64,000 nt of DNA from Chlorobiota bacterium. GTDB lineage: Bacteria > Bacteroidota > Ignavibacteria > OLB7. The stretch covers positions 3,086,955-3,150,954 of the forward strand of contig JADJXR010000001.1 in the NCBI GenBank assembly GCA_016710285.1, given 5' to 3'. Shown here one piece after another: positions 4,953 to 48,680 of the stretch (positions are counted from its first letter, which is position 1; the number at the start of each line of letters is the position of its first letter). The position numbers were made by a program, and so were the translations under genes. The notes beneath the pieces are model-generated. The model was not told the origin of the DNA and did no database searches. It worked only from the letters and a program-made list of their open reading frames with translations.

Positions 4953-4953
4953 A

Positions 4954-6060: not shown

Positions 6061-6061
6061 T

Positions 6062-7243
6062 TCAGGATTGTTCGTTTGCAAACATGAGAACCTCCTCAAA
6101 CAGCAATCGTTCCTCTGCCTCGGTTGCTGCTTTGGCGGCTTCTTCGGGGGTGGAGGCCAGCGCGGTGATATGCCCCATTTTCCGCCCACGCCGTGAACGC
6201 TCCTTCCCGTAAATGTGCAGATGCACGCTGGGATCCGCCAGCGTTTCTTCGTAATTGGCAACCGCACCGGACCCGTTATGTTTTCCCAAAATATTGACCA
6301 TTGCAACGCCCGGGGCGCGTAAATCGGTGCGACCCAATGGCCACCCCATCACTGCCCGAATGTGATTTTCAAATTGCGAGGTGACGCAGCCTTCAATCGT
6401 GTAATGGCCGCTGTTGTGGGGGCGCGGCGCGATTTCGTTTACCAACACTTCGCCGTCGCCGGTCAGAAAAAGCTCAACGCCAAAAATTCCAATTCCATGA
6501 ATAATTTCCACGGCGTGGCGGGCGTAGTCGCGGGCAAGGGTGGTGGCCGGTTCGCCTGCGCGGGCCGGGGCAAGCACCGTGCGGCAGATATGATGCTCCT
6601 GCACGGTTTCCACCACCGGGTACAACGCGGTTTCGCCATTTGCCCCCCGCGCAACCATCACCGCAAGCTCCTTCACAAACGGCACAAAGGCTTCGCAGTA
6701 TAATTCACGTGCTGGATTTCCCTTGGTGATTTTTTCCCAACCGATGGGAATATCCTCCGGTTTGCGGATCGTCGCGTTCCCGTAGCCGTCGTAGCCGTTG
6801 CGCCGGCTTTTCAGGATAAATGGATACCCGAATTGCTGGCCAAATGCTTGCGCGTCGCCGTGGGTTGCAACCGCACGGAAGGCCGCCACGGGAATTCCCG
6901 CATCGTCGAACGTCTGCTTCTGGATCAATTTATCCTGAATTTTCGCGACCGATGCCGCGCCAGGCCGCAATACAAACCCTGCCCGTTCAATCACCATTAA
7001 ATGGGCTTCCTCAATGAACTCACTCTCTAACGTGATAACGTCGCAGTTGCTGGCAAAATGGAGCAAGGCAATGTGGTCCGAAGGGTCGGCAACGGTTTCG
7101 CGGTGGGCAATTTGCCCGGCGGGTGAGTTGGCATGGTTTTCCATAATGTGGACTTTCATCCCAAGCTGGAATGCGGCGATTGCGGTCATCCGCGCAAGTT
7201 GCCCGCCGCCAAGAATGCCAAGTGTTGGAGGGTTGTAGATCAT
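6062..7243 (-). CDS. purK: N5-carboxyaminoimidazole ribonucleotide synthase (PurK, ATP-grasp).
   Basis: ATP-grasp PurK-like sequence along the whole length (GILGGGQLARM..., VLVNEIAPRPHNSGHYT). The start is probably MIYNPP. Confidence 0.85.
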   Translation of the reverse strand: MIYNPPTLGILGGGQLARMTAIAAFQLGMKVHIMENHANSPAGQIAHRETVADPSDHIALLHFASNCDVITLESEFIEEAHLMVIERAGFVLRPGAASVAKIQDKLIQKQTFDDAGIPVAAFRAVATHGDAQAFGQQFGYPFILKSRRNGYDGYGNATIRKPEDIPIGWEKITKGNPARELYCEAFVPFVKELAVMVARGANGETALYPVVETVQEHHICRTVLAPARAGEPATTLARDYARHAVEIIHGIGIFGVELFLTGDGEVLVNEIAPRPHNSGHYTIEGCVTSQFENHIRAVMGWPLGRTDLRAPGVAMVNILGKHNGSGAVANYEETLADPSVHLHIYGKERSRRGRKMGHITALASTPEEAAKAATEAEERLLFEEVLMFANEQS

Positions 7244-9188: not shown

Positions 9189-9791
9189 TTATCCTGCGTT
9201 CTCTTCGGCTGCGGGCGCAGCGGCTTCGGCAGCGGGTGCTTCTTCGGCAGCAGCAGGTGCAGCGGCTTCGGCAGCAGCGGCGGCCTCGGCTTCGGCTTTT
9301 GCAGCAGCTTCGGCAGCGGCGGCGGCTTCAGCCTCGGCTTTTGCAGCAGCGGCAGCAGCTTCGGCAGCAGCGGCGGCCTCGGCCTCGGCTTTTGCGGCGG
9401 CTTCGGCTTCAGCTTTGGCTTTTGCTTCGGCAGCAGCGGCAGCGGCTAAGCGTGCTTTTTCGTCGGCAGAGCGTTTGCTGTCAAGGTGGGTTTCTACCGC
9501 TTTTGCGACGGTATCGGCGGCAACGCCTTTGCGAAGAAGGTAGCGTTCCATCAGAACGCCTTCGCGGCGAAGCAGGGCGCGGACGGTGTCGGTTGGTTGC
9601 GCGCCGCTGTTCAGCCAGTAGTGGACGCGGTCGCGTTGAAGGATGGTGATAGGATTACCGGTCACCAGTGGATTGTACTGGCCGACTTTCTCAAGGAAGC
9701 GGCCATCGCGTGTGTTGCGGCTGTCGGCGGCGACGATATCGTACACCGGAGCCTTTTTCCGTCCCATTCTTCTCAAGCGGAGCTTGACCAT
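9189..9791 (-). CDS. rpsP: 30S ribosomal protein S16 with a ~110-aa Ala/Glu/Lys-rich low-complexity C-terminal extension.
   Basis: N-terminal [41 protein letters not shown] is canonical S16. The tail is (AEAKA/AAAAE)n. Confidence 0.85.
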
Positions 9792-9856
9792 GTTTCTGCG
9801 TTGGTTGAGTTAGTGTTGCTGTATTTGTTCTGAAAGAATTGTCTGCGTCGTTCGGA

Positions 9857-11197
9857 TTACCGTTTCCGCCCCATCAGCCCTTTTGCGGCCATTCCTGCCA
9901 TTTTCCCCATTCCGCCGCCGCTAAGTTGGCGCATCATCTTCCGCATTTCGTCGAACTGCTTCAGCAGGTTGTTCACATCTTGGATTGTTGTCCCGCTTCC
10001 GCTGGCAATCCGTTTCCGCCGGCTGGCGTTGATGATCTCCGGCTTGTTCCGCTCTTCTTTTGTCATCGAGGTAATCATCGCTTCCAGCCGCCCCATTGCT
10101 TTGTCGTCCACTTGGACCCCCTTCATTGCCCGGTCCATTCCGGGAAGCATCCCCAGCAGGTCGCGGATGGATCCCATTTTTTTGATCTGCTGAAGCTGCT
10201 GGTAGAAGTCCTCCAGCGTGAACTGGTTCTTGCGGAATTTCTCTTCTAATTTCCGGGCTTCGGCTTCATCGTACTGCTGCTGGGCTTTTTCCACCAGCGA
10301 GACCACGTCGCCCATTCCCAAAATTCGGGAGGCCATGCGGTCCGGGTAGAACTGCTCCAGCGCGTCCATTTTTTCGCCAACGCCGATGAACTTGATCGGT
10401 TTCTCCACCACCGAGCGGATGGAGAGCGCGGCGCCGCCGCGGGTGTCGCCATCAAGTTTGGTAAGGATAACGCCGTCGAAGTTCAGCCGCTCGTTAAAGG
10501 CTTTGGCGGTCGTGACGGCATCTTGGCCGATCATGGCATCCACCACGAACAGAATTTCGTTCGGGCGGGTGCGGTCCTTGATTTTGGCCACCTCTTCCAT
10601 CATCGCCTCATCAATCGTCAAGCGTCCGGCGGTATCAATGATGATGATATCCTTCCCCAATCGCTTGGCTTCCACAACGGCGCGTTCGGCAATCGTTACC
10701 GGGTTTTCCCCTTCCAGATTGAAGACCGGAACCCCGATTTGTTCCCCTAACGTCTTCAGCTGGTCAATGGCGGCGGGGCGGTAGGTGTCGGCAGCAACCA
10801 GCATCGGTTGGCGGCCTTTCCCCTTGAAGTAGCTGGCTAATTTGGCCGAATGGGTTGTTTTGCCGGAGCCTTGCAGTCCGCACATCATAATGATGGTGGG
10901 ACCCGCCGGTGCCATTTTGATCTCGGCAAGGTTGTTCCCCATCAGCTCCACCAACTCATCGTAGATGATCTTGACGATCATCTGCCCGGGCGTTACCGAG
11001 GCCACAACGTTCCGGCCAAGTGCCTTTTTCTGAACGTCGTCAACGAACTTCTTGGTTACTTGGAAGTTGACGTCGGCATCAAGCAGTGCGCGGCGGACTT
11101 CGCGCAGTGCTTCGGAGATATTCTCTTCGGTTAGCCGCGCTTCGCCGCTAATCCGGCGGATTGCTGCGTCAAGTTTGGCACTAAGGTTCTCAAACAT
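9857..11197 (-). CDS. ffh: Signal recognition particle protein Ffh.
   Basis: SRP54 N, GTPase and M domains (GLQGSGKTT, DTAGR, Met-rich C-terminus GMGKMAGMAAKGLMG). Confidence 0.9.
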   Translation of the reverse strand: MFENLSAKLDAAIRRISGEARLTEENISEALREVRRALLDADVNFQVTKKFVDDVQKKALGRNVVASVTPGQMIVKIIYDELVELMGNNLAEIKMAPAGPTIIMMCGLQGSGKTTHSAKLASYFKGKGRQPMLVAADTYRPAAIDQLKTLGEQIGVPVFNLEGENPVTIAERAVVEAKRLGKDIIIIDTAGRLTIDEAMMEEVAKIKDRTRPNEILFVVDAMIGQDAVTTAKAFNERLNFDGVILTKLDGDTRGGAALSIRSVVEKPIKFIGVGEKMDALEQFYPDRMASRILGMGDVVSLVEKAQQQYDEAEARKLEEKFRKNQFTLEDFYQQLQQIKKMGSIRDLLGMLPGMDRAMKGVQVDDKAMGRLEAMITSMTKEERNKPEIINASRRKRIASGSGTTIQDVNNLLKQFDEMRKMMRQLSGGGMGKMAGMAAKGLMGRKR

Positions 11198-16433: not shown

Positions 16434-18152
16434 TCAGTCTGGCCCCTTTGCCAGCCCGTACCCTCGGGTATCGCTCCAGCCAATAAACAACGGTTTCGCC
16501 AAGCTATCCGTTTCAATCCGCACGGCATCCACCCTGCCCGATACCGTTGGCCGCTCCACCAGCCGATGCCCCATTGCCCGCAGCGAGTCGGCAGCCCCGG
16601 CGGTGAACGCGCCACGCTCGTGGAACAGGGTGTCGGGAAGCCATTGGTGATGGATGCGCGGGGCGTTGCCGGCAGCAGCAAGGTCCATTCCGTAATCAAT
16701 TTGGGAATGGATCATCTGCAGTACGGTGGTGATGATGGTGCTTCCGCCGGGCGTTCCCACCACCATCCAGGGCTTGCCGTCGCGCAGCACAATCGTTGGG
16801 GTCATGGAACTCAGCATCCGTTTGCCAGGTTGGATTGCGTTCGCGCTGCGGCCAATCAACCCAAATTGGTTCGGTGTGTTCGGGCGGGCGCTGAAGTCGT
16901 CCATCTCATTGTTCAAAAAAAATCCCGCGCCCCCCACCACCAACTTGCTCCCGAACGCGCTGTTCAGCGTGGTGGTGACGCTGACGCAATTCCCGTGGCG
17001 GTCCACAACGGAGTAGTGGGTGGTTTGCTGGCTTTCGCGTTGGAATGCCTTGGGGTCCCCGTGGCCAACGGCACTGCTTGGCGTTGCGCGTGGGGTGATG
17101 TTGGCGGCGCGTGCGGCGGCATATTCCTGGCTGGTTAGTCCGGCAACCGGTATCTCAACAAAATCTGGGTCGCCTAAAAATTCGGCGCGGTCGGCGTAGG
17201 CGCGGCGCATCACCTCGGCCAGGAAATGAGCGTGCGGGGCGGAGTGGAAGGGGAGCTGGCGGAAGTCTTGCGGCTCCATCATTTTCAACATCTGCACCAG
17301 CAGGACCCCGCCGCTGGAGGGTGGGGGCATGGTGATGATTTCATAGCCCCGATACGTGGCGCGCAGTGGGGTTCGCTCGGTTGCCGAATAATCGGCAAGG
17401 TCCGCAGCGGTGATGATCCCGCCGGAACGTTGCATCTGCTCCACAATCAGCCGTGCGGTTTGGCCGCCGTAGAAGCCTTGTTTCCCCAAGTCGGCAATCC
17501 GCCGAAGCGTTGCGGCAAGCTCCGGCTGGCGGAAGGTCAGCCCCGCCGCCAACGTGGAATCCCCGGGCAAAAAGATGGCGCGGGTTGAGGGGAATTGCAG
17601 GAACGGATCCCGCTTTTCAGCAAGGTCATCATGCAGCCGTGGATGAATCGTGAACCCGGAATCAGCAAGGGCAATGGCTGGCTGAAGGACCTCTGGAAGC
17701 GGCTTGCTGCCGTAGCGTTCCAGCGCAAGAAGCAGCCCCGCCGGGGACCCGGGAACGCCCGCAGCAAGCGCGCCAAGCTGTGCCCGTTCGGGAAGGAAAT
17801 TGCCGCTGGAATCAAGGAACATATCGCGGGTTGCCGCCGCCGGGGCGCGTTCGCGGAAGTCAATGGTGGTGGTGCGTCCGTCGCTCATGCGGATCACCAT
17901 GAACCCGCCGCCTCCCAAGTTCCCCGCCTGCGGGTAGGTGACGGCCAGCGCAAATCCCACAGCCACCGCAGCATCCACCGCGTTCCCGCCGTTCCGCAGG
18001 ACCCGCAACCCTGCTTCTGTTGCTTCCGGCGTGGCCGCGCTGACCATTCCCGTGGCCGAGCGTGCTTCGCCAGGAGCATCATGCGCCGGCTGGTTTCCCT
18101 GAATTACGCAAGCAATCAGCAGCAGAGGTAGAAGAAGGAGGGAAGAGCGCAT
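16434..18152 (-). CDS. ggt: Gamma-glutamyltranspeptidase.
   Basis: Signal peptide. GGT motifs TTHYSVVDRHGNCVSVTTTLN and GGAGFFLNNEMDDF. Catalytic Thr context GSTIITTVLQ. Confidence 0.85.
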   Translation of the reverse strand: MRSSLLLLPLLLIACVIQGNQPAHDAPGEARSATGMVSAATPEATEAGLRVLRNGGNAVDAAVAVGFALAVTYPQAGNLGGGGFMVIRMSDGRTTTIDFRERAPAAATRDMFLDSSGNFLPERAQLGALAAGVPGSPAGLLLALERYGSKPLPEVLQPAIALADSGFTIHPRLHDDLAEKRDPFLQFPSTRAIFLPGDSTLAAGLTFRQPELAATLRRIADLGKQGFYGGQTARLIVEQMQRSGGIITAADLADYSATERTPLRATYRGYEIITMPPPSSGGVLLVQMLKMMEPQDFRQLPFHSAPHAHFLAEVMRRAYADRAEFLGDPDFVEIPVAGLTSQEYAAARAANITPRATPSSAVGHGDPKAFQRESQQTTHYSVVDRHGNCVSVTTTLNSAFGSKLVVGGAGFFLNNEMDDFSARPNTPNQFGLIGRSANAIQPGKRMLSSMTPTIVLRDGKPWMVVGTPGGSTIITTVLQMIHSQIDYGMDLAAAGNAPRIHHQWLPDTLFHERGAFTAGAADSLRAMGHRLVERPTVSGRVDAVRIETDSLAKPLFIGWSDTRGYGLAKGPD

Positions 18153-18195
18153 TTGATTATTCCATAAACGTGTGATTCCAAGCCCATAGGCAACA

Positions 18196-18556
18196 CCTGT
18201 GTCGGGGCCGCTACCCTTCGGCTGGGCCCCGACAAAGATCGGGGCCGCTACCCCGACTTTGTCGGGACAACCACCGCAAAGGGTAGCCGAAGGTCTTTAG
18301 CCTTCGGCGTCATCTTCGGCCTTCGATCCTCGGCCCCGACAAAGGTCGGGGCCGCTACCCTTCGGCTGGGCCCCGACAAAGATCGGGGCCGCTACCCCGA
18401 CTTTGTCGGGACAACCACTGCAAAGGGTAGCCGAAGGTCTTTAGCCTTCGGCGTCATCTTCGGCCTTCGATCCTGGGCAGGCTAAAGACCTGTTATCAAT
18501 CCCGACGGATGTCGGGGCCGCTACCCCGACGGATGTCGGGGCCGCTACCCTTTGGC
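18196..18556. repeat. REP/MITE-like palindromic intergenic repeat cluster (locus A). It holds two tandem copies of a ~143-bp unit plus extra hairpin modules.
   Basis: Modules gtcggggccgctaccc, gccccgacaaagatcggggc (hairpin) and ggtagccgaaggtctttagccttcggcgtcatc (hairpin ccgaagg/ccttcgg). Unit 18196-18330 is repeated at 18331-18473. Confidence 0.6.
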
Positions 18557-18557
18557 G

Positions 18558-19319
18558 TTATCCAACCACAATTTTCCGCACCCGTTGTTGAAGGTTCAGG
18601 CCGTCGTTGTCGCCCCAGGCGGTTTCGTAGTTGTTGGTGAATCCTAGCTGGCCGTATCCCCGCACTTCTGCAATCTGCGCTTCCTCATCAAGGTCGTCGA
18701 ATCCGTCAACGGTTTGGGTGAATCCCGGGTGCTCGTCGTACTTGGCGGGGTTCACCACTGCGAAGACTTGCGGCGGATCCAGCGGTATCGGTTGGTCCCC
18801 GCGATTGGGCCAGGCATCGTCCGGCTGCACAACCACTTCGCCATTGCGGAACATCGCTTTGCCAGTAAGGATAAACCGCCCTTCATCCTCCACATGGAAC
18901 TCCGCTTCGGGGGCAAGGGTGCTGCATTTCAGCAGGAACTCGCACAGCAAGTAGGCGTTGAATTCGTTGTCGGCAACGTGGGTGATTCCGCTGGCAACCG
19001 AGCTGTCGCGAACGCCCCCCCAACGGACGGTGAACAGCCCTTCCAACTCCATCGCCCGAACCGCCGCAAGCTCATCTTGAAGCTCAATTTTCTTTGCCAG
19101 CAATCGCTTGCGGAAGTGGTAGCGTGCGGTGTGGTAGGGCATGTCGGGGATGTGGTCGTAGTTGGGGAACAGGATGTACCGCTTCAGCCCAATGCGGTCG
19201 CAACTCCAGATGAATTCGGAGTTGTACCAGTGCTGCAACCTGGCGATCTCCTTCCAAATGCTGTCCGGCAGTGGGGTGGTTCCGGTGTCGGGGACGTAGT
19301 AACGGAGTGCGCGTGGCAT
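18558..19319 (-). CDS. Hypothetical protein.
   Basis: ORF with the likely start MPRALRYYVPD. No family recognised. Confidence 0.3.
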   Translation of the reverse strand: MPRALRYYVPDTGTTPLPDSIWKEIARLQHWYNSEFIWSCDRIGLKRYILFPNYDHIPDMPYHTARYHFRKRLLAKKIELQDELAAVRAMELEGLFTVRWGGVRDSSVASGITHVADNEFNAYLLCEFLLKCSTLAPEAEFHVEDEGRFILTGKAMFRNGEVVVQPDDAWPNRGDQPIPLDPPQVFAVVNPAKYDEHPGFTQTVDGFDDLDEEAQIAEVRGYGQLGFTNNYETAWGDNDGLNLQQRVRKIVVG

Positions 19320-19458
19320 GATGGTTGGTTGATAAGCAAAAAATGCGCAGCGGAGGAGAGCGGAGGGCCGCTGCAATGAAAGAAATCTGGTGCAAAGAAA
19401 TCTGGTGCGCGGCATGGTGTCCCGTTGCCACGCACCAGATGCGGTCTGCCGTCCGGTG

Positions 19459-21251
19459 CTACTTCATGTCGAACTCTTGCCCGCCGCCTGCCCCTCCGGT
19501 TCGCACAATCTCGATATGGATACGGCGTTGCGCGGCGCGGTCGGCACGGTCGCGACTTTCGCCGCCGCCGATGTAGCGGAACTGAATCCGCCCGTCACTT
19601 TTTAGCTGGCGGTAATCTTCGTTGCCGCTGGCGGCCAGCATTTGGTCCAGGTGGTGGCCGCTGTACCAGGCGCGCAATCCCGAAAGCTCAAGGTTCCCAA
19701 TCTGGTCGCCACGGCTGATCTCATACTCCATCTTGGCATTGTCCTGGAACGTCACCGTCTCATCTTCCAAATATTTCCCCACGAACTGCTTCGGGTCCGC
19801 ATAGCCGGTGATCCGAACCTCCAACACTTCCCCGGGGAGCATGCTGGCTTTGAACCGTGGGACGATCTCCTTCAGCGTGGTTCCCGTCACCTCCTTGAAA
19901 ATCCCTTCGATTGTTTCGCTGTAGCTCAGGTAATCTTTGTACCGCTTGGACCCTTTGCGGAACCGCTCGATGTAGGTGGCATCGCCAAGCGGGCCTTCCA
20001 ACAGCGGGTACAGCCCATCAAGGTTTTCGCGGGTGTTGGGGCGGTAGTAGCCGGTGACGAAGAAGGGGACGTTGTAGCGGCCAAGATCGAATTCCGCCAG
20101 CGAGATCGGCCCGAACTTCACGGTTGCCGTGGCTTGTTCGTTGGCGAACGGCGTGGTGATGCTGGCCGAGCGCGGCGGAAGATCCCGGACGGTTGCCTGG
20201 AACCGGTACTTCCGCTCGGCGGGAAGGAACTGCTCGTACTCTTTCACCTGTGGGTTGGTGGCGAACGTGGCCACCGTCTGCCCGGTGGCTTCATCAATCA
20301 CCTCCACAACGCTGGGAAGCGGGTTCCCCGTGGTGGAGTCAACCACGCTGACAAGGATGCGGGTTATCCCCTCGCCAAAAACGTTCGGCGTGCCGTAGTA
20401 GATGTCCAATCCCCCTTGCCCGCCGTCGCGCCCGCTGGCGAAGTAGAACCGTTCATGCTTCGATGGAGCAAAGAAAAACAGCTCATCCTTCTTGCTGTTA
20501 ATCAGCGACCCGAGGTTCGAGGCCTGCCCCCATTCTGCCCCTTCGCGAACCGCCATGAATACGTCGTAGCCGCCAAAGCCGGAGCGGCCGTTGCTGCTGA
20601 AATACAGGGTCCCGCCGTCGGAGGTAATGTTTGGCGAACGCTCGTCGTTTTTGGTGTTGACCATTGGGCCGGCGTTCATCGGCGTGGACCACTGCTGCCC
20701 GCTCAGGGTGGTGTACCAGATGTCGGTTTTGCCATATCCCCCTTTGCGGTTGCTGGCAAACCAAATCGTTTTCCCGTCGCTGCTGATCGAGGGTTGCGAC
20801 TCCCATGCCGACGTGTTGACGCTTCCCCCAGGTTCCGAATGTTGGTGATCCGCCCGTCGGCAATTTCCGCGATGTAGAGGTCGGTGCTTCCCTTGCCGTC
20901 GGGCCCATCATCGGCACTGAAGACGACGGTTTTGCCGTCGGCAGCAATCGCCACCGCGCCGTCGTTGCCGCTGCTGTTCAGTGGCGATCCTGGGTTTACC
21001 GGGGTCCCATATCCCCCCTGCACCCGGCTTGCGCTGAAGATGTCCGCTTCCCCCAGCGTCCCTTCCGCACGGGTGGAGGTCAGCAGAAGCGTGCCGCGGT
21101 CCTTGGAGAGTGCCGGCCCGTAATCGTCCTGGGCCGAGTTGACGGCATCAATGGTTCGGATTTCGTACGTGTAGTTGAACAGCTCCTGCCCCAATGCCGA
21201 ACCGGCAAGGCCAAGCAACAGAAATAGAGTAGCACATGTGCGGCGGTTCAT
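19459..21251 (-). CDS. OmpA-family protein with TolB-like PD40 beta-propeller repeats. It is interrupted by a frameshift near 20825-20845, which is either a sequencing error or a pseudogene.
   Basis: The N-terminal fragment (20703-21251) has a signal peptide and PD40-like repeats. Reading in the +2 frame across a ccccc run continues a perfect PD40 repeat (NTSAWESQPSISSDGKTIWFASNRKGGYGKTDIWY) into the 19459-20679 ORF. The C-terminus has the OmpA motif NLELSGLRA. Confidence 0.55.
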
Positions 21252-21287
21252 AGACCCTGTGTTTGGTTGGTTCAGATTTCGGTTAAT

Positions 21288-22109
21288 TCAGATGGAGAAA
21301 AGAATGCCAAGCGTGAATTGAATCGGGCTGGTTTTCCAGTCGTCTTCTTTGGAGATTTTGGTGAATGGAAAGCCGTACAGCAACTCCGGATTCAGGAAGA
21401 TTGCATCGCTGATTTCAATGGTTGCGCCAAGCCCGCCCCGAAGCTCGAACTGCAACGTGTTGACGATGTCAAGCTCGCCGCTGAACAACTCCTGCTCGGT
21501 CCCTGTCCCGTTTTGGAACTCCACCCCACTTGGCGTGGTGATCTCCTCCGTCTTCGTGAAATCTTTCCCCATCACAATCCCTGCCGATGGCCCCAACGCC
21601 ACGTACAGCCCGAAGTCCGCCAGCGTGTAGGTTCCCAGAAGGTCAATGTTGAAGGTGGCAAGGTTGGCTTCCAACCGGTCGGTGAAGATGACGTTCTCCA
21701 CCTGATTGTTCTGCCCAAAAAATGGCACCGGGTCGCTGGCGGTTTCAAAATTCCCTTTGCGGGATTCGTAGGCAAGCCGCGGGGAAAGGGAGAGTTGGTC
21801 CGTTAGCGGGATCATCGCCTTTGCGCCGAACACCGGGCCAATTCCGGAGCCTTCATCGAACGTGCAGCAGACGATCCCGTTCTCGGTCAGCACAAACTCC
21901 CCGCTGTGCATGTTGAAGTTGATCCCGGCGTAGGGGCCAACCAGAATGCCGCGTGCGTCGGGGTTCAGAATCCGGTCGAACGGCAGGGGGGAAGGACGCA
22001 CCGCAACGGCGTTGTTGGCGGGGGGCTGCAAGGGTTGCGCGGTTCCTTGCTCCGGCAACATTGCTGCCAGCATCAGCAGCAGAAAGGGGAGGCGTAGCGG
22101 TGTTTGCAT
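21288..22109 (-). CDS. Outer-membrane beta-barrel (porin-like) protein.
   Basis: Signal peptide MQTPLRLPFLLLMLAAMLPEQGTAQ. Alternating amphipathic strands and a C-terminal ...FTLGILFSI typical of OM beta-barrels. The ORF-track N-terminal extension was discarded. Confidence 0.4.
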   Translation of the reverse strand: MQTPLRLPFLLLMLAAMLPEQGTAQPLQPPANNAVAVRPSPLPFDRILNPDARGILVGPYAGINFNMHSGEFVLTENGIVCCTFDEGSGIGPVFGAKAMIPLTDQLSLSPRLAYESRKGNFETASDPVPFFGQNNQVENVIFTDRLEANLATFNIDLLGTYTLADFGLYVALGPSAGIVMGKDFTKTEEITTPSGVEFQNGTGTEQELFSGELDIVNTLQFELRGGLGATIEISDAIFLNPELLYGFPFTKISKEDDWKTSPIQFTLGILFSI

Positions 22110-22236
22110 CGGCAGATAGGTTGTTGGTCGTTGCCAAATCCGGAGGCTGCGCGTTCGGTTCGGCGGTTGGTTGTTGTAACTTTGGGCACGGCAATGGCGG
22201 AAATTCCCCAGCCGGTTCAAGTGCCGCGCAAAAGTA

Positions 22237-24468
22237 ATGACAACTCCCGCAAAACGCACACGCCCCGAAGGAGAAATTAAAGCCGAGGATGTGAAGAACG
22301 CCGGGGGGGATCTGTTCCCCCTGCAGTTCGTGAAAGGAATCGGCCCAGCACGCGCCGCTGCATTGGCCGAAGCTGGCGTGCGGACCGTGCGGGACCTTCT
22401 GATGTTCACCCCCAAGTCATATCTGGACCGCCGCACCGTGCTCCCGCTTCGGCAAACCAGGCTGCTGCTTGGTGGTGAGGAAGGAATCCCCGACCAAATC
22501 ACCGCCATTGTGACGGTCCGCCGGATGGAAATTCTGCAAAGCGGACGCGGGCAGAAACGGCTGATTATGCGCGTTGGGGACCCAACCGGCGATGCCAATC
22601 TGGTCTTCTTCCAAGGGGCGCAGTATTTCATCAAATCCTACCAAGTGGGGGATAGCCTGGCGATTAGCGGCCCGGCAGAAATCTTTGGCGGAATGCTGCA
22701 ATGGACCCATCCCGAAATTGAAAAATTGGAGGAGGAGGAGCGGGGGTTGATCCACAGCGGGCGGATTATCCCGCAGTACCGCGAAACCGCACGGATGAAA
22801 TCCGCAGGGCTTAGCAGCCGCTCCATGCGGAAGCTGATGGAAGCCACCTTCCAGCGATACGTTGCCGAGGAACTCCGCGAAACCTTAACTGATGAACTGA
22901 TCCGCGAGTACGCACTGCTCCCCCTTGCCGATGCCGTCTATCAGATGCACTTCCCGGGCGATGAAGAGCTTCTGAAACAAGCGTTGTACCGGATGAAGTT
23001 CGAGGAACTCTTCTTCTTTGAACTTGGCCTTGCCTACCGGAAGGAGGTCCAGCTTAGCTCCGAACCAGGCATCAGCTTCAACATCCACAGTGCCCTTGCG
23101 CGGCAGCTGTTGGACAAGCTCGGTTTTGAGCTTACCGCCGCGCAACGCCGCGCAATGAAGGAGATTTTGGCCGACATGGAGAAGCCAACGGCAATGAACC
23201 GACTGCTGCAAGGGGACGTTGGTTCCGGCAAAACAATCGTGGCGGTGTTGGCAATGCTGGTGGCGGTGGAGAACGGCTACCAATGCGCCATGATGGTCCC
23301 CACCGAAATCTTGAGCGAGCAACACGCCCGCACGCTGCAACGGCTGTTGGAAGGCTTGCCGGTGAAGGTGACGCAGTTGGTGGGGGGGCAAAAAAAACGG
23401 GCACGCGAGGAGGTGCTATATCAGCTTCGGAACAACGAGACGAACATCATTGTGGGGACCCACGCGCTGTTCCAGGAGGGGGTGGAGTACGCCAATCTTG
23501 GGCTGGTGGTGATTGATGAGCAGCACCGCTTTGGCGTTGAGCAACGCGCACGGCTGCGGAACAAAGGTCGCCGCCCCGACACCCTGATTATGACCGCCAC
23601 CCCAATCCCCCGAACCCTAACAATGACCCTGTACGGGGACCTTGATGTCAGCATCATTGATGAGCTTCCCGCAGGGCGCAAGCCAATCCGCACCGCCATT
23701 CGGTTCGAGAATCAGTTGGATGCTGTCTGGAATTTTGTCCGAAGCGAGGTGATGGCCGGGCGGCAGGCGTACATCGTCTATCCGCTGGTGGAGAAGTCGG
23801 AGAAATTGGAGCTGAAGTCGGCAGTGGAGCATTACGAGTTCTTGAAGGAGAGCGTCTTCCCTGACCTCCGCTTGGGGCTGCTTCATGGGCAGATGCTGTG
23901 GTACGAGAAGGAGGACGCCATGCGTGATTTCCTTGAGCGGAAGGTGGATATTCTTATCGCCACCACGGTGATCGAGGTGGGCATTGACGTTCCGAACGCC
24001 TCGGTGATGGTGATTGAGAATGCCGAGCGGTTTGGGTTGTCGCAGCTGCACCAGCTTCGCGGGCGGGTGGGGCGGGGTGCCGATCAATCCTTCTGCATCT
24101 TGCTGACGAAGGACCACTACCGCTACCAGATGCGGCGCGGGATCAGCGCGAACGAGGCACGCCAGGAACGCCGCGCCGCAATCCGCCGGCTGGCCGCAAT
24201 GGCCGAGACCAACGACGGTTTCCGCATCAGCGAAATTGACCTTGAGCTTCGCGGCCCCGGCGATGTTGTGGGAACGCGCCAAAGCGGGTTGCCGGAGTTC
24301 CACCACGCCAACCTTATCACCGATGGGCCAATCGTTGGGGCGGCCCGCGACGCAGCGTTCGGGGTCATCCGCCGCGACCCTGAGCTGCAATCGCCCGCCA
24401 ACCAGCGCATCGCCCAAGCCTTCCAAGACTCCATCAAACGCTCGCTGAAATATGCTGATGTTGGGTAG
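22237..24468 (+). CDS. recG: ATP-dependent DNA helicase RecG.
   Basis: Wedge domain plus SF2 helicase motifs (GDVGSGKT, DEQHRFG, TATPIPRT, QLHQLRGRVGRG). Confidence 0.9.
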   Translation: MTTPAKRTRPEGEIKAEDVKNAGGDLFPLQFVKGIGPARAAALAEAGVRTVRDLLMFTPKSYLDRRTVLPLRQTRLLLGGEEGIPDQITAIVTVRRMEILQSGRGQKRLIMRVGDPTGDANLVFFQGAQYFIKSYQVGDSLAISGPAEIFGGMLQWTHPEIEKLEEEERGLIHSGRIIPQYRETARMKSAGLSSRSMRKLMEATFQRYVAEELRETLTDELIREYALLPLADAVYQMHFPGDEELLKQALYRMKFEELFFFELGLAYRKEVQLSSEPGISFNIHSALARQLLDKLGFELTAAQRRAMKEILADMEKPTAMNRLLQGDVGSGKTIVAVLAMLVAVENGYQCAMMVPTEILSEQHARTLQRLLEGLPVKVTQLVGGQKKRAREEVLYQLRNNETNIIVGTHALFQEGVEYANLGLVVIDEQHRFGVEQRARLRNKGRRPDTLIMTATPIPRTLTMTLYGDLDVSIIDELPAGRKPIRTAIRFENQLDAVWNFVRSEVMAGRQAYIVYPLVEKSEKLELKSAVEHYEFLKESVFPDLRLGLLHGQMLWYEKEDAMRDFLERKVDILIATTVIEVGIDVPNASVMVIENAERFGLSQLHQLRGRVGRGADQSFCILLTKDHYRYQMRRGISANEARQERRAAIRRLAAMAETNDGFRISEIDLELRGPGDVVGTRQSGLPEFHHANLITDGPIVGAARDAAFGVIRRDPELQSPANQRIAQAFQDSIKRSLKYADVG

Positions 24469-24494
24469 ATGGGAAAAGGGGTGGGGCAAGCGGT

Positions 24495-24685
24495 TATCGT
24501 TCTCCACCGCCAGTTCGTTGAGAAAATCAAACAGGTAGCCGCCCCGACATGAAGTCGGGGTTCATAAAAGGTCTTTAGCCTTCGGTGTCACCCACCGCCG
24601 GTTCGTTGGGGGAATCACACCGGTAGCCACCCCGACTCAGTCGGGATTCATAGCAGATCTTTAGCCTTTGGCAGGGGCGTTGTGA
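24495..24685. repeat. REP/MITE-like repeat locus B, with two tandem ~90-bp units.
   Basis: caccgccRgttcgttg...ggtagccRccccgac-N6-gtcgggRttcatRRaaggtctttagccttcgg occurs twice. Confidence 0.55.
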
Positions 24686-24804
24686 GGAGCGACCGCAACC
24701 GCTATCTTGATGCCGCTTCCCCTTGCATGGCAATGGCAGCATTGCGTGGAGGGGAAGATGCCCGCCGGGAAATCATTCATTCTTTTCCACTATGAGCATC
24801 TGTT

Positions 24805-25632
24805 ATGGCAATTCGGTGTCTGTTTCCACTTCTCGCCCTCGCCATGCTGGCGTGGTATCCCGCTGCTGCGCAGAACAACGATCCATCGCCAAGCAACGAC
24901 TCGGCAATGGCGGTTGCGGCATCGGCTCCAATCCTTATCCCCATTGACACGTTGCGGTTCGGCAGCAAGCTGACGGCGATTGCTGGCGGAGCGTTCCCCA
25001 TGGGTGAGTATGCCGAAACAACTGGAGTGCGCCCCGGGTTCGCAACCCCAGGATTCTCCGCAGGGATAGAGTACACCGTCCACGCCGATTCGTTTGCGTT
25101 GCTGGTTTCGCCCGGGTGGGTTTCCACGTTGTTGGTTTCCGCCAACGGTTCCGATCAATCGGGGGTGAAGGCCGCGCTGGCGCAGGAGTTCAACATCCCC
25201 CCCGATGCCAACCCCATTGTTGAGGCCGGCCCCTGGGTCACGGCCTCGGTCCTGACCGGATTCGAGGGGAACTACCAACTGGCCAACAACTGGAGCATTG
25301 GCGTGCAGTCGCAGTTTGGGTTTGTGGTGGGGAGCAGTTCGTTGGTGAGATTGGCTTCCGAGCGCGGGGCAATCACGCAGCATTCCTCCATTGCCGCCGC
25401 GCCATGTTTTTCGGTTGGGGTGGTTTCTTCGTTCTGGAATCGGTTTGCGCTGGCCATGCGTTACTACCGGTCCACCATCACCTACGACATCCGCACCATC
25501 AACCCCGACGGAACCAGCAACGCCCTGTACTACGACCAACCATCGGACCTTCTTTCCCTTTACCTTGGCTACACCTTTGCCACCTTCCGCCACCAGACAC
25601 CACTGTTTGCCGAAGAAGTGGTGGAGGAGTGA
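24805..25632 (+). CDS. Hypothetical secreted/outer-membrane protein.
   Basis: Signal peptide MAIRCLFPLLALAMLAWYPAAAQ. Beta-rich, with an aromatic C-terminus. Confidence 0.35.
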   Translation: MAIRCLFPLLALAMLAWYPAAAQNNDPSPSNDSAMAVAASAPILIPIDTLRFGSKLTAIAGGAFPMGEYAETTGVRPGFATPGFSAGIEYTVHADSFALLVSPGWVSTLLVSANGSDQSGVKAALAQEFNIPPDANPIVEAGPWVTASVLTGFEGNYQLANNWSIGVQSQFGFVVGSSSLVRLASERGAITQHSSIAAAPCFSVGVVSSFWNRFALAMRYYRSTITYDIRTINPDGTSNALYYDQPSDLLSLYLGYTFATFRHQTPLFAEEVVEE

Positions 25633-25989
25633 GGGGGAGGAAACTGGAGAAGGGGGGAAGAAAGGAAGGGGAGATGTGTCGAGCCAACCTTTCTGAATCT
25701 TTTTATCTGATTTTTTTGTTCATCACCACCTACCATCTCCTGTTTGGGCGGAAGAGGTGGGGGCATGGCCACCAGCGCGCGGAGTCCCCTTCAGAACCTG
25801 CGCGAACCCTAGGCCGCTGCAACCCTATGCTTTGCGTAGGGTGAGTTGCTGATATTTCAAAGCACCGAACGTTCCCAAATCGTTTGGCCCACCTTGCTGC
25901 CCTCCCTTTTCTGTGAGTATTCTGTGAGTTCCCGTTGCCAGCTTTACCGCCACACAAATTCCAATCACCAACACAGGAGAGAGATCACC

Positions 25990-28900
25990 ATGAAGTTTTT
26001 ACGCTTTCTGCTTGCGCTGTGGGCTGTTGCGCTGGCGGGGATCACCACGCAGGGGCTGGCTTCCGGGTTGACCCCGGTTGCCGGGCATCCCCGAATCTTG
26101 CTGACCCCCACGGTGAAAACCACACTGACCGCAAAGAAAAACAGCAACCATCCAACATGGCTTGCGCTGAAGTCCAAAGCCGATGCGCTGCTGAACCAAA
26201 CCATCGTCCAGTGTAAGTACAACAACTACTCCAACTGGTACTCCAACTCCATCTATTTCGAGGGGAACGGCTCCGGCTGGATGCACGCGGCGTTCACCCT
26301 TTCGCTGGCGTGGCAAATCAGCGGCGACACGAACTACGCCAACAAAGCCGTGGCGTTGGCCGATGAAATTATCCGCGCCGATGCCGACCCGGACAACCAG
26401 GGAACGGGCAAATCCCCGATCACGCTGGACCGCTCCTACACCTCGCGCCATGTTGGCCCGGCAATCGCCGTGCTGTACGATTGGTGCCACTCCCGGCTTG
26501 ATTCGGCACGCAAAGCCAAGCTCCGTGCGGTGATGGTCAAATGGTTCAACCACCTGCGGAATGGCTCGGCCAGCAGCGATGTCTATCAAAAAAATGGCCC
26601 AGCCACCGGCGCGTGGTTCGGCTCGCATCTTAGCTGCGCCGCATGGATGGGATACGCCATTGCTGGCGACGACACCGCGTCGCAGCGGATGATTGACTGG
26701 GCACGCGCCCGGTTCGACGGCACTCAATCGGCAACGCTCTCCTCCAGCGATTACCCCACCACCTACCGGATGCAAGGCTTCACCGGGGGGATCAAGTCGT
26801 GGTTCGGTTCGCGCTGGGGCGTTCCTTCCACAACGCAAGGGGCAACCGGCGCGCCGATGAAAGGGGGAATCTTCCCGCAAGGTTGGTGGTACGGCAATGC
26901 CGAGTTCGGGCGGATGGTGGATTACATGCTGGTGGTGAAATCGGCAACGGGGGAGGACCTGCCGGGAATGTATCAAACATATCTGGCCGACATCTTCATA
27001 GCCCACCGCCAAGCCACGCTTCCGGGGAACCTGCTGATTGATCCCAACGGCGAGTGGCGCGGAAGCCAGGGGGCCGTTGTGGAGCGTGGGCTTCCCGCAC
27101 GGATTGCCACCGCGCTGGCTTCGGTCCCGAACGTTGGCGCGGCGGCGGCAACCTTTGCGTGGGATGAAATCCCACCCACTTCTTCCTCGGTGGCGGGCGT
27201 TAGCGTTGCGGCGTTGCAACCCTGGGAGGAGTTCCTGTACCGGAACACCGCAGGAAGCGGCGCAACGGTTGCGCTTCCCCTTGCCTACACCCCATTTGCG
27301 CCGAACTACCCAGCGGCCGGGGCCGGCAACGGAGCTATTCCATATTTCACCATGCGCTCTTCCTGGGGGAGCAATGCGGTCTGGGCAAGCGTGAATATGG
27401 GGGCGCAGGTGTATGATGAGTTCATGCATTATCAAGCCGGGCATATCGAGCTTGCAAAAGGGAACCACCGTCTGCTGATAAGCCCAACAACATGGAAAGG
27501 GGATTCCTCGGGATTAGGGGTCACCAGCTTGGGGCCGGTGATTAGCGACCACTCCGGCGCGAAAAACACTCTCTATTTCGATGACTTCGGCGACTACCAA
27601 TCCACAAGCTCGACCCGCGTTGGCGGCCAGGGACCGCACGGGAAGGATAAAGTTGTTGCCCAGGAGATGAACCCCAGCTACAGCTATATCAGTGCCGACC
27701 TTTCCACCGCCTACAACAACATGGACTGGCCACGTTCGGTGGGGGACACAACCAACCGGAAGCTGGAGTATTTCTACCGAAACTTCGTCTATCTGCGCCC
27801 GGCAAACTTGTTTGTGGTGTACGACCGCGTAAAAGCCGCCGCCAGCAGCAACGCCAACGGTGCCTACCGCAAGCGGCTGCGCTGGCATTTCCCAACCCAG
27901 CCCGTTGTTAGCGGAAGCAGCATCCGCGTGGATAACAGCGATGCCCGGCTGTGGATGCGGGCACTGCTTCCGGCAAGCCCAACAATCACCACCACCAGCT
28001 TGGTCAGCAACCCCGACAACACGTGGGGTTCGTGGCTGAACTATCTGTTCAGCAGCAAAACCTACCGCGCCGAAGTCAGTAATGCGGCCAACCCGCTCCA
28101 GCAGCCATTCCTAACGGTGATGCAGGCCGGAACCACATCCCTTGCGGAACCGACATCGGAGCTTTTCTACACCACTGATTCGTTGATGATTGGAACCACT
28201 ATCGAGCTTGCCGACGGGCGGGACTATGTGATGCTGTTCAACAACCGCCCCGGGCAAGTGCCGCAGCCAATCACCTACGCCTACTATCCCCTTGTTGGCT
28301 CGATCAACGGAACCCACACCCTGTGCGGGCTTGAGCCAAACACCGCCTACACTGTGGAGCTGCAAGGAACGTTTGTGGTGGTGGCCAAGGACCCAACCGG
28401 GGCGTTCACAACAACCGCCGCTGGGGTCCTGCAGTTCACCCCGCCCGGAGGCACGCCGCAAGGTGGCGGAGATGACGATGATGGGAACAACGGAGGCGGC
28501 GGAGATAATGGAGGTGGTGGAAACAATGGAGGCGGCGGAGATAATGGAGGTGGTGGAAACAACGGCGGCGGCGGAGACAATGGCGGCGGAGACAACGGCG
28601 GTGGTGGAGACAACGGCGGCGGCGGAGACAATGGCGGTGGCGGAAACAACAACGGCGGCGGAGCGATCATCGCTGGCCACCCGCGATTGCTGCTGACCCC
28701 GGCAATCAAGACCGCGCTGCTTGCGAAGGTCCAAGCCAACGACCCAACATGGACCGCGCTGAAAACCCGTGCGGACATTCTTCTGACCTATCCAATCACC
28801 CAGTACAAAACCGCAACCGCCTACAACTGGTTTGCCAACACCATCTTCTACGGCTATCAGGGGGAGGGGTGGTACAGCGATGTGATACCGCTGGCGTTTG

Positions 28901-31380: not shown

Positions 31381-31449
31381 CGAAGGCACTGGTTGGTGGA
31401 CCCGGAGGAATCGCTGGCAACAGCGGTTCCTCCGGTTGTTATTGGCCCG

Positions 31450-31670
31450 CCTACAGGGTAGCCGCCCCGACCTTCGTCGGGATTGATAAAAGGTCTTTAG
31501 CCTTCGGTGTATCATCTTGGCGAGAAGACTGAGCCCCGATGAATCGGGGCCGCTACCTGTGGGATCGCCACGGCTCCGCCCGCCACAGGGTAGCCGAAGG
31601 TCTTTAGCCTTCGGTGTCATCCTTCAGTGCTATCACTGGGCCCCGATGAATCGGGGCCGCTACCTGTGAG
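31450..31670. repeat. REP/MITE-like repeat locus C (two copies of the core in inverted/direct arrangement).
   Basis: ggtagccgccccgaccttcgtcgggattgataaaaggtctttagccttcggtgt, then gagccccgatgaatcggggccgctacctgtg, then ggtagccgaaggtctttagccttcggtgtcatcc, then gggccccgatgaatcggggccgctacctgtg. Confidence 0.6.
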
Positions 31671-41713: not shown

Positions 41714-41767
41714 GATTGCTGTGAAGAAAAAATATCTGAGGCAGGAGAATGAAGAGAACGGAGGAAG

Positions 41768-42190
41768 GAATCAACCGCCAAACCCATTTCCCCCCAGCAT
41801 TCAAGGAACAGGGTAGCCGCCCCGACCTCCGTCGGGATTGATAAAAGGTCTTTAGCCTTCGGTGTCTGTAGCTGGCAGAGGTGGGGTGAGTTTCACCGAG
41901 AACGGAATCAACCGCCAAACCCATTTCCCCCAGGATTCAAGGAACAGGGTAGCCGAAGGTCTTTAGCCTTCGGTGTCTTTAGCCTTCGGTGTCTGTAGCT
42001 GCCAGAAGTGACATGAGTTTCACCGAGAACGGAATCAACCGCCAAACCCATTTCCCCCAGGATTCAAGGAACAGGGTAGCCGAAGGTCTTTAGCCTTCGG
42101 TGTCTTTAGCCTTCGGTGTCTGTAGCTGCCAGAAGTGACATGAGCTTCACCGAGAACGGAATCAACCGCCAAACCCATTTCCCCCCAGCA
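41768..42190. repeat. Tandem array of about 3.5 copies of a ~120-bp unit containing REP-family modules (locus D), lying between the two adhesin paralogs.
   Basis: The unit gaatcaaccgccaaacccatttcccccaggattcaaggaacagggtagccgaaggtctttagccttcggtgtctttagccttcggtgtctgtagctgccagaagtgacatgagtttcaccgagaacg is repeated with near identity. The first copy carries ggtagccgccccgacctccgtcgggattgataaaaggtctttagccttcgg. Confidence 0.65.
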
Positions 42191-42262
42191 TTGGGGGGAC
42201 GCTTCGCCGCTTGCGGCGAAGCAGGGGGGCGCGGCGGTGAAACCCTTATCCACTACTCACCC

Positions 42263-48587: not shown

Positions 48588-48680
48588 GGTAGCCGCCCCG
48601 ACCTCCGTCGGGATTGATAAAAGGTCTTTAGCCTTCGGCGTATCAGACTGGGCAGGCTAAATACCTTGTCGGGGCTATTT
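48588..48680. repeat. REP/MITE-like repeat locus E (single copy).
   Basis: ggtagccgccccgacctccgtcgggattgataaaaggtctttagccttcggcgtatc...ggcaggctaaataccttgtcggggc. Confidence 0.55.

What the first reader, a model, noticed from the sequence alone, without database searches (positions are those of the whole stretch)
18196..18556. A dispersed family of palindromic REP/MITE-like intergenic repeats (five loci in 64 kb); locus A is a tandem duplication of a ~143-bp unit
Seen in the sequence: the modules ggtagccgccccgac-N4-7-gtcgggattgataaaaggtctttagccttcgg and the related ggtagccgaaggtctttagccttcggYgtcatc (stem ccgaagg/ccttcgg) and gtcggggccgctaccc recur at 18196-18556, 24495-24685, 31450-31670, 41768-42190 and 48588-48680. 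They always lie between genes, usually at 3' ends, and each contains 2-3 potential hairpins. At locus A a ~143-bp composite unit is exactly duplicated. Such REP/BIME-like elements can act as terminators, mRNA stabilisers or recombination substrates. This family is GC-rich and unusually dense here.
Basis: seen in the sequence. Interest (0 to 1): 0.6.

Follow-up and report, generated by a model that had tools for sequence, protein, structure and literature searches.

The report
GTAG-tagged REP/REPIN-like repeat family
The five intergenic repeat clusters are real and belong to a dispersed family of small nested-hairpin DNA repeats of the well-known bacterial REP/REPIN type, here in an uncultured 'Chlorobi'/Kapabacteria-like wastewater bacterium, so this is an ordinary kind of element in a lineage where this subtype had not been catalogued.

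Summary
The 18-nt core AAGGTCTTTAGCCTTCGG occurs 12 times (0.04 expected), at exactly the five stated loci. Locus A is a 144-nt unit repeated 1.9 times with one mismatch; loci B and D are also tandem arrays.

Each basic unit is a GTAG-tagged hairpin: GTAG-CSG-CCCCGAY, a 2-5 nt loop, then RTCGGG. Two units in inverted orientation, tags outward, flank a conserved inner palindrome (AAGGTCTTTAGCC ... GGCTAAAGACCT). The whole ~80-110-nt element folds as one long hairpin. There are no target-site duplications, no terminator-like T tails, no Rfam match and no transposase in the window.

The family is not confined to the window. At least five more loci with different flanks occur in assemblies of the same species (bin CHB4 / 'Chlorobi bacterium OLB7', anammox granules). 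Short-read contigs repeatedly end inside the repeat. Array copy number differs between strains, and 21 kb of the sister species, including the orthologous hemH site, has no copy.

The best reading is a GTAG-type REP/REPIN-like non-autonomous element, clustered as in BIMEs. Mobilisation by a RAYT transposase is inferred only; the whole genome could not be searched.

This is a new member of a known kind, of low to moderate interest.

The parts
18196..18556 (+). Locus A, a REP cluster. It holds a 144-nt composite unit x 1.9 (18201-18344 and 18345-18478), then a long right arm (18479-18525) and one extra REP (18525-18548). It lies between the stop of the 253/285-aa gene (18558, minus strand) and the start of the gamma-glutamyltranspeptidase gene (18152, minus strand).
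   Evidence: (families D8, D9)
18228..18251 (-). GTAG-CGG-type REP hairpin (GTAGCGGCCCCGATctttGTCGGG). Equivalent units lie at 18335-18358, 18372-18395, 18501-18524 and 18525-18548.
18283..18302 (+). Short-form head, with the GTAGCCG tag fused directly to the core arm AAGGTCTTTAGCC. A second copy lies at 18427-18446.
24504..24671 (+). Locus B, two diverged tandem copies (88-nt unit, 82% identity) of left arm plus core. REP hairpins are at 24535-24559 and 24623-24645. It lies downstream of recG, whose stop is at 24468.
31454..31562 (+). Element C1, a complete long-form head-to-head dimer. It reads GTAG-CCG REP (31458-31481), then the core, then a GTAG-CGG REP on the minus strand (31535-31556). 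It folds as one long hairpin.
   Evidence: (z -3.4)
31584..31670 (+). Element C2, with a short-form left arm (31590-31609) and a GTAG-CGG REP (31642-31663, minus strand). It folds as one hairpin and overlaps the last 22 codons of the ORF 31604-34117 (minus strand).
   Evidence: (z -4.8)
41758..42192 (+). Locus D. One long-form left arm plus core (41813-41862) is followed by a 127-nt unit x 2.7 (41848-42185). Each unit carries a short-form head (41949-41968 and 42076-42095) plus reiterated flanking DNA. It lies between the two giant VWA/NHL paralogues. Copy number differs between strains.
   Evidence: (D4, D10)
48588..48676 (+). Locus E, with a long-form left arm plus core (48589-48638) and a decayed right arm (48650-48676). 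It lies in the divergent region between an 88-aa gene (start about 48522, minus strand) and hemH (48728, plus strand). The sister species has no repeat at this site.
31402..31435 (+). Not part of the family. This is a terminator-like hairpin with a T-rich tail directly after the 1844-aa gene. It shows that the REP elements at locus C sit downstream of a separate terminator.

Best explanation
These are copies of a GTAG-tagged REP family organised as REPIN-like inverted pairs and BIME-like clusters.

**Anatomy (shown).**
- The unit is a short GC-rich hairpin (stem CCCGAY/RTCGGG, loop 2-5 nt) preceded by an unpaired GTAG plus three bases.
- Two units face each other with the tags outside. They enclose a conserved inner palindrome, AAGGTCTTTAGCC, about 20 nt of loop, then GGCTAAAGACCT.
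- One strand of the ~80-110-nt element can therefore fold into a single long hairpin or into three small ones.
- The two arms are fixed variants. The left arm reads GTAG-CCG ... AAGG ... ttcgg. The right arm reads GTAG-CGG ... CAGG ... tgcc.
- Either arm also occurs in a short form that lacks the small hairpin.
- Also shown: extragenic position, no target-site duplication, dispersal to at least 10 loci, copy-number change between strains, and absence from the sister species' syntenic region.

**Mechanism (inferred).**
- The element is non-autonomous and is copied as single-stranded DNA.
- A host-encoded HUH tyrosine transposase of the RAYT type would recognise the hairpin and its GTAG tag, as in E. 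coli and Pseudomonas.
- Once inserted, clusters would grow and shrink by slippage or unequal recombination between the hairpins, carrying flanking DNA along.
- Any effect on neighbouring genes, such as RNA 3'-end hairpins or promoter spacing at hemH, would be secondary.
For: - **Non-random family.** Both motifs far exceed chance, and they occur only at the five loci.
- **GTAG tag.** All 23 hairpin units and 10 short-form heads carry it, and the left/right arm differences are fixed.
- **Stem covariation.** The stem appears as GAC...GTC in 16 units, GAT...ATC in 4 and GAT...GTC in 3.
- **Folding.** Complete elements fold as long hairpins closed by their ends. C1, C2, the locus A unit and copies in L032, L034 and L035 give z-scores of -2.9 to -7.9.
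- **No target-site duplication.** The flanks of C1, C2 and E show none.
- **No mobile-element context.** No transposase, IS or phage genes were found in the Pfam scans or precomputed Pfam calls for window genes.
- **Copies outside the window.** Peptides translated from the repeat retrieved spurious ORFs from assemblies of the same species. Their contigs have non-window flanks: Rho and AAA ATPases, a DZR protein, a 193-aa gene with a tRNA (copies on both sides), and Peptidase_M23.
- **Assembly breaks.** Independent short-read assemblies end inside the repeat: L014-L017 at window position 48612, the end of L032, and both ends of L036.
- **Array dynamics.** Another strain has two fewer 127-nt units at locus D.
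- **Lineage restriction.** The sister species (HemH 86% identical) has no copy in 21 kb of synteny. At the hemH site it carries unrelated sequence between conserved flanks.
- **Literature match.** Di Nocera et al. 2013 (PMC3733652) describe the same features: a GTAG tag, head-to-head dimers with conserved 20-100-bp spacers that have complementary ends, clusters reiterated in tandem with flanking DNA, and frequent RAYT association.
Against: - No RAYT or Y1 transposase gene was seen. There is no such Pfam hit among window genes or among the annotated genes of the fetched flanks. A crude HUH...Y motif scan of all held DNA found nothing.
- That covers only roughly 110 kb of a ~4-Mb genome, so it is a weak negative.
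- Total copy number is unknown. About 27 kb sampled outside the five-locus stretch has no copy: 7 kb upstream, 9 kb downstream and 10.7 kb in L030. Abundance may therefore be modest or patchy.
- The 2013 survey found GTAG-type REPs in Proteobacteria, Cyanobacteria, Chloroflexi and the PVC group. It found only CGTC-type repeats, which lack a dedicated transposase, in Chlorobi and Bacteroidetes.
- The 18-nt core is more strictly conserved than the REP hairpins. A hairpin-centred model does not predict this.
Confidence: 0.72

Rival explanations
1. This is a classical MITE: a deletion derivative of a DDE-transposase insertion sequence, mobilised through its terminal inverted repeats.
For: The elements are ~80-110 nt long and have ~17-nt imperfect inverted ends, CAGG(G)TAGCSGCCCCGA. 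They are dispersed and intergenic.
Against: C1, C2 and E show no target-site duplication. The ends are GTAG-tagged hairpins that also occur alone and in tandem, unlike IS ends. No IS or transposase was found in any sampled DNA.
Confidence: 0.08
2. These are primarily functional RNA or cis-regulatory elements, such as 3'-end stabilisers, terminators or protein-binding sites. On this view they are kept by selection and spread by duplication and gene conversion, not by a transposase.
For: Four of the five loci lie directly downstream of a stop codon. The hairpins are stable. T-G pairs in the stem, in units sharing the strand of the flanking genes at locus A, would be G-U pairs in RNA. The 18-nt core is invariant in most copies, as expected for a binding site.
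Against: No hairpin has a T tail, and none was flagged as terminator-like. A separate terminator-like site already follows the gene at locus C. Locus E lies between divergent starts, and there is no Rfam match. Orientation is independent of the flanking genes' direction. The sister species lacks the repeat at the conserved hemH site. This rival is compatible with a REP origin rather than exclusive of it.
Confidence: 0.15
3. The repeats are an assembly or sequencing artefact, or are confined to one recently duplicated segment.
For: All five loci lie within 30 kb, with none in the adjacent ~16 kb of flanks. MAG contigs differ in structure at locus D.
Against: The same copies appear in independent assemblies: NCBI GCA_001567195.1, GCA_019695125.1 and GCA_021404615.1, plus Logan and ENA contigs. 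Copies with entirely different flanks exist. The genes between the loci are unrelated housekeeping genes.
Confidence: 0.02

Closest known systems
GTAG-tagged REPs (24 families; Di Nocera, De Gregorio and Rocco 2013, PMC3733652), including E. coli REP, Pseudomonas REP and Stenotrophomonas SMAG
   Same: An unpaired GTAG sits at one end of a 6-7-bp GC-rich stem with a short loop. Units pair head-to-head with a conserved 20-100-bp spacer that has complementary ends. Clusters are reiterated in tandem with flanking DNA. The position is extragenic, mostly after 3' ends, and some copies run into gene ends.
   Different: Three bases (CCG or CGG) lie between the tag and the stem. The spacer is itself a strongly conserved 13-bp-stem palindrome, and it can be joined directly to the tag in short forms. 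The host is a Kapabacteria-like member of the FCB group, where that survey found only CGTC-type repeats. The consensus was not found in that paper's text or supplements. No RAYT has been linked.
REPINs with their RAYT (Bertels and Rainey 2011, PMC3116915; PMC3337134)
   Same: [quoted passage not shown] Singletons look like remnants. The family is lineage-specific.
   Different: No RAYT gene has been identified, and the population size is unknown. The two arms are fixed heterotypes. The conserved inner palindrome and the long and short arm variants are not part of the standard REPIN description.
E. coli BIMEs (mosaics of Y and Z REPs)
   Same: Clusters are built from two distinguishable REP types in alternating orientation, and they expand in tandem.
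   Different: There is no sequence relation. Read by eye, the arm holds only a half-match to the IHF consensus (TATCAA). The unit sizes are different.
CGTC-tagged REPs reported in Chlorobi and Bacteroidetes (PMC3733652)
   Same: They are short tagged palindromic repeats in the same broad phylogenetic group and form head-to-head dimers.
   Different: The tag here is GTAG, not CGTC. The stems are GC-rich rather than starting with A-T pairs, and there is no CCA tail.

Membership tests
GTAG-tagged REP | Short (20-40 bp) imperfect palindrome forming a stem-loop | tested here: met
   The units are 22-25 nt, with stem CCCGAY/RTCGGG and a 2-5-nt loop. The hairpins appear in the single-strand folds.
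GTAG-tagged REP | Unpaired GTAG tetranucleotide at one end | tested here: met
   All 23 hairpin units and all 10 short-form heads carry GTAG.
GTAG-tagged REP | Extragenic location | tested here: met
   All five window loci lie between called genes. One element overlaps the last 22 codons of an ORF.
GTAG-tagged REP | High copy number, dispersed over the genome | tested here: inconclusive
   At least 10 loci are known: five in the window and at least five with other flanks. Contig ends fall inside the repeat. The total count is unknown because the genome is not in the searchable DNA collections.
GTAG-tagged REP | Organisation as inverted dimers and tandemly reiterated clusters | tested here: met
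   Head-to-head dimers occur at C1, C2, L032, L034 and L035. Clusters occur at A, B, D and L034.
REPIN/RAYT system | Two inverted REPs plus a spacer folding as one long hairpin | tested here: met
   (z-scores -2.9 to -5.9)
REPIN/RAYT system | A cognate RAYT (HUH/Y1 transposase) gene in the genome, typically flanked by the same REPs | not testable with these tools
   None was found in the window or in about 45 kb of other same-species DNA. The rest of the ~4-Mb genome could not be read or searched.
MITE (DDE-transposase derived) | Target-site duplication flanking the terminal inverted repeats | tested here: not met
   The flanks of C1 (cgccta / ggatcg), C2 (cgcccgc / agggtg) and E show no duplication.
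MITE (DDE-transposase derived) | A parent IS with the same ends | tested here: inconclusive
   None was found in any sampled DNA.
CGTC-tagged REP | Terminal unpaired CGTC, stems starting with A-T pairs, and a CCA tail | tested here: not met
   The tag is GTAG. The stems are GC-rich and there is no CCA tail (compared with the description read).
Intrinsic terminator | GC-rich hairpin followed by a T run | tested here: not met
   No repeat hairpin is among the terminator-like sites in 18000-32000. A separate site lies at 31402-31435.
Any Rfam RNA family | Covariance-model match | tested here: not met
   Only a tRNA passes the gathering threshold. No repeat locus appears among the hits up to E = 1.

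The most novel reading that the evidence does not exclude
The family may be more than a routine REP. Its most conserved part is not the GTAG hairpin but an 18-nt core within an inner palindrome, and that core can be joined directly to the GTAG tag. The two arms are fixed heterotypes, and all five window loci share one orientation on a stretch where cumulative GC skew rises overall. This could mark a REPIN lineage with a distinct two-layer recognition architecture. It might be served by an uncharacterised HUH transposase, or by no dedicated one, in the FCB group, where GTAG-type REP systems have not been described. Insertion might be biased by replication strand.
Probability: 0.15. Interest if true: 0.45.

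Novelty: new member of a known kind. Interest (0 to 1): 0.27.

Why it matters
- REP/REPIN families are a long-known class. This one adds a clearly structured GTAG-type family in an uncultured Kapabacteria-like bacterium that is common in anammox reactors.
- In practice, it explains why short-read assemblies of this organism fragment. The CHB4 draft has 271 contigs, and contigs end inside the repeat.
- It also explains why MAG contigs disagree in structure at locus D.
- It generates spurious 'hypothetical proteins' in public databases.
- It gives strain-level markers through array copy number.
- If a cognate RAYT is found, the known range of REPIN-RAYT systems would extend into the FCB group.

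Tried and rejected
- **Genome collection scan.** The 18-nt core gave only 11 single, evidently chance matches in unrelated taxa.
- **First metagenome scan.** The 21-mer core gave zero hits.
- **Second metagenome scan.** The REP hairpin pattern gave 16 hits. Most lie in coding sequence of high-GC organisms. A few are REP-like hairpins in unrelated taxa, and none carries the core.
- **Exact look-up of the 285-aa ORF next to locus A.** It failed. A gene call in another assembly gives 253 aa for this gene, so the start I used was probably wrong.
- **Look-ups at the window edges.** No copies lie in the 7 kb before or the 9 kb after the window.
- **ECF sigma locus look-up.** This locus is joined to locus D in one MAG. 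The look-up gave 10.7 kb without copies, and the contigs end near the repeats. It remains unresolved whether that join is a real rearrangement or a misassembly.
- **HUH...Y motif scan of all held DNA for a RAYT.** It found nothing. This is a weak test.
- **Search of the 2013 REP survey's supplements for this consensus.** It found nothing.
- **Rejected readings.** Rfam at gathering and at E <= 1 shows nothing at the repeats. I rejected the terminator reading because there are no T tails. I rejected CRISPR-like and coding-repeat readings because of the anatomy.
- **IHF site.** Read by eye, the arm has only a half-site.

Full report
**1.

- The region 18196-18556 reads as the finder described.
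- The 18-nt core AAGGTCTTTAGCCTTCGG occurs 12 times at <=3 mismatches, all on the + strand, against 0.04 expected from shuffles.
- GTCGGGGCCGCTACC and its near-complement occur 14 times against 0.27 expected.
- A sensitive blastn-short search with every unit against the window finds exactly the five loci named and nothing else.
- Locus A is a 144-nt unit present 1.9 times with a single mismatch. It is 'near-exactly' rather than 'exactly' duplicated, and the unit is 144 nt, not 143.
- Locus D is also a tandem array (127 nt x 2.7, 97% identity). Locus B is an older one (88 nt x 1.9, 82% identity).

**2. Anatomy**

I tabulated all copies in the window and in related DNA. The result is 23 small hairpin units and 10 'short-form' heads.

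- Every unit begins with GTAG, followed by three bases. A 6-7-bp GC-rich stem (CCCGAY/RTCGGG) then encloses a 2-5-nt loop.
- Complete elements carry two such units in inverted orientation with the GTAG tags outward. Examples are 31454-31562 and 31584-31670, plus copies in L032, L034 and L035.
- Between the two units lies a second, inner palindrome: AAGGTCTTTAGCC, about 20 nt, then GGCTAAAGACCT.
- The two arms are consistently different. The left arm reads GTAG-CCG ... ataaAAGGTCTTTAGCCttcgg. The right arm, read from its own tag, reads GTAG-CGG ... ataaCAGGTCTTTAGCCtgcc.
- Either arm can lack the small hairpin, so that GTAGCSG abuts the inner palindrome directly. These short forms account for the finder's second module.
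- As single-stranded DNA the complete elements fold into one long hairpin closed by their ends. Z-scores run from -2.9 to -5.9, and the locus A unit reaches -7.9.
- The stem shows a both-sides change: GAC...GTC in 16 units and GAT...ATC in 4. Three further units are T-G intermediates.
- C1, C2 and E show no target-site duplication.

**3. Context**

- The genes between the loci are ordinary chromosomal genes. They include gamma-glutamyltranspeptidase, RecG, exonuclease VII, ferrochelatase and other haem-synthesis genes, Ffh, TrmD, LigA and SecG. There are also giant secreted proteins carrying type IX secretion tails.
- I found no transposase, IS or phage gene in the genes examined, so the repeats are not part of a larger element.
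- No repeat matches an Rfam family, even at E <= 1.
- None has a terminator-like T tail. At locus C a separate terminator-like hairpin (31402-31435) already follows the upstream gene.
- Loci A-D follow a stop codon. Locus E lies between two divergent starts, those of an 88-aa gene and hemH.
- Element C2 supplies the last 22 codons of the glycosyltransferase-like ORF 31604-34117.

**4. Whose genome, and is the family confined to this window?**

- The window is 99.9% identical to GCA_001567195.1 over one stretch (L012). Against two stretches of one contig of GCA_019695125.1 it is 97.8% (L013) and 99.99% (L018) identical.
- Protein names and the accession LMYZ identify GCA_001567195.1 as bin CHB4, 'Chlorobi bacterium OLB7'. 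It comes from anammox granules and is a 3.9-Mb draft in 271 contigs (PMC4821891). Its relatives are labelled Kapabacteria.
- The species is absent from the searchable DNA collections, so I used an indirect route.
  - I translated the repeat in its open frames and searched the protein database with those peptides.
  - This retrieved spurious ORFs that gene callers had placed over repeat copies.
  - Their contigs carry clear copies next to genes that are not in the window: Rho and AAA ATPases (L032), a DZR protein (L033), a 193-aa gene with a tRNA flanked by copies on both sides (L034/L036), and a Peptidase_M23 gene (L035).
  - That gives at least five further loci, so the finder's refutation test ('restricted to this window') fails.
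- Short-read contigs repeatedly end inside the repeat. Four Logan contigs start at window position 48612, L032 ends in a copy, and the 1190-nt L036 has copies at both ends.
- About 27 kb of other same-species DNA has no copy. Abundance may therefore be patchy, and the total cannot be given.

**5. Dynamics**

- Another strain has two fewer 127-nt units at locus D.
- In the OLB7 draft, locus D is joined through a short-form copy to a different left flank. That junction also carries a different duplicated unit. It could be a rearrangement or a misassembly at the repeat.
- The nearest other species (HemH 86% identical, GCA_020850315.1) has no copy in 21 kb of conserved synteny. At the hemH site the flanks align but the middle ~115 nt is unrelated sequence, including a (GGTGAAT)n run.
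- The family is therefore young or lineage-specific, not a conserved cis-element.

**6. Interpretation**

- These features match the published description of GTAG-tagged REPs almost point for point (Di Nocera et al. 2013, PMC3733652):
  - an unpaired GTAG at one end of a short stem-loop;
  - predominance of head-to-head dimers with conserved 20-100-bp spacers that have complementary ends;
  - occasional overlap with gene ends.
- They also fit the REPIN concept of two inverted REPs as one mobile hairpin (PMC3116915, PMC3337134).
- The most likely mechanism is therefore the one proposed for those families. The element would be mobilised as single-stranded DNA by a single-copy HUH tyrosine transposase (RAYT) that reads the hairpin and its tag. 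Local expansion and contraction of arrays by slippage or unequal recombination would follow.
- The anatomy, dispersal, lack of duplications and strain variation are shown here. The transposase step is inferred.
- I could not test for a RAYT. None lies in the roughly 110 kb I could read, but that is under 3% of the genome.

**7. What is unusual**

- The 2013 survey found GTAG-type REPs in Proteobacteria, Cyanobacteria, Chloroflexi and the PVC group. It found only CGTC-type repeats in Chlorobi and Bacteroidetes, and this family is not CGTC-type.
- The inner 18-nt core is more strictly conserved than the hairpins.
- The arms are fixed heterotypes.
- All five window loci share one orientation (two-sided chance about 1 in 16), on a stretch whose cumulative GC skew rises overall.
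- These points are hints, not results.

**8. Verdict**

It is a new member of a known class, and interest is low to moderate.

Noticed in passing
window 42171-42233; L012 3146-3270 and 3362-3505; L035 931-1056; L032 about 9800-9960: A second dispersed repeat of about 125 nt sits next to the GTAG family at several loci. Its sequence reads ...CAACAGCGAACAAYCAATCTTTCTAAAA..TTTCCCCCCAGCATTGGGGGGACGCTTCGCC...GAAGCAGGGGGGCGCG and has its own hairpins. Only one copy of its CCCCCAGCATTGGGGG motif is in the window.
   Followed up: partly
L033 2900-3480: Another contig that carries the repeat also holds further palindromic repeat types. These include CAGCCCTGAARGGGCGAC / GTTGCCCCTTCAGGGC, CCCAGGGCRTYGCCCTGGG, and a diverged GTAG hairpin, GGTAGCTGTCCCGATtgaATCGGGGCGAC. 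The first is absent from the window.
   Followed up: partly
window 36546-41393 and 42263-47425: Two tandem paralogues encode giant VWA/NHL/ASH-domain proteins (1615 and 1720 aa), offset by 5717 nt, with 92% identical 3' ends. The OLB7 draft carries only one copy, fragmented, joined to a different left flank (malic enzyme ... ECF sigma factor). This is either structural variation or a misassembly at the repeats.
   Followed up: partly
window 31604-31670: The last 22 codons (...PSQVAAPIHRGPVIALKDDTEG*) of the PMT_2/YfhO-like ORF 31604-34117 on the minus strand are encoded by repeat element C2. The element therefore supplies the gene's present C-terminus and stop codon.
   Followed up: partly
window 19459-21251: The PD40-repeat gene is split into two ORFs here (406 aa and 182 aa). 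In L018 (GCA_019695125.1) it is a single 597-aa gene, and the two sequences differ by one gap in 13.7 kb. This is a frameshift, pseudogene or sequencing error.
   Followed up: no
window 4236-6306: A low-GC island (45% against about 59%) holds an AAA_21/SMC-like ATPase and a DUF4276 protein. They match the PADLOC candidate defence pair HEC-01A/HEC-01B with E-values of 2e-143 and 1e-69. The pair lies between purK and a glycosyl hydrolase gene.
   Followed up: partly
L019 9850-9900: At the site orthologous to locus E, the sister species has a (GGTGAAT)n microsatellite of about 7 copies upstream of hemH.
   Followed up: no
window 28459-28668 and 9203-9457: There are two in-frame coding tandem repeats. 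One is an 18-nt G/N/D-rich repeat inside the 1844-aa secreted protein. The other is an Ala/Glu/Lys-rich repeat in the C-terminal tail of the 200-aa ORF 9189-9791.
   Followed up: no
protein database entries P0241-P0246: Public databases hold 'hypothetical proteins' of 55-92 aa that are simply translations of this repeat, for example UZ07_CHB004002731 and UZ07_CHB004000422 of Chlorobi bacterium OLB7.
   Followed up: yes
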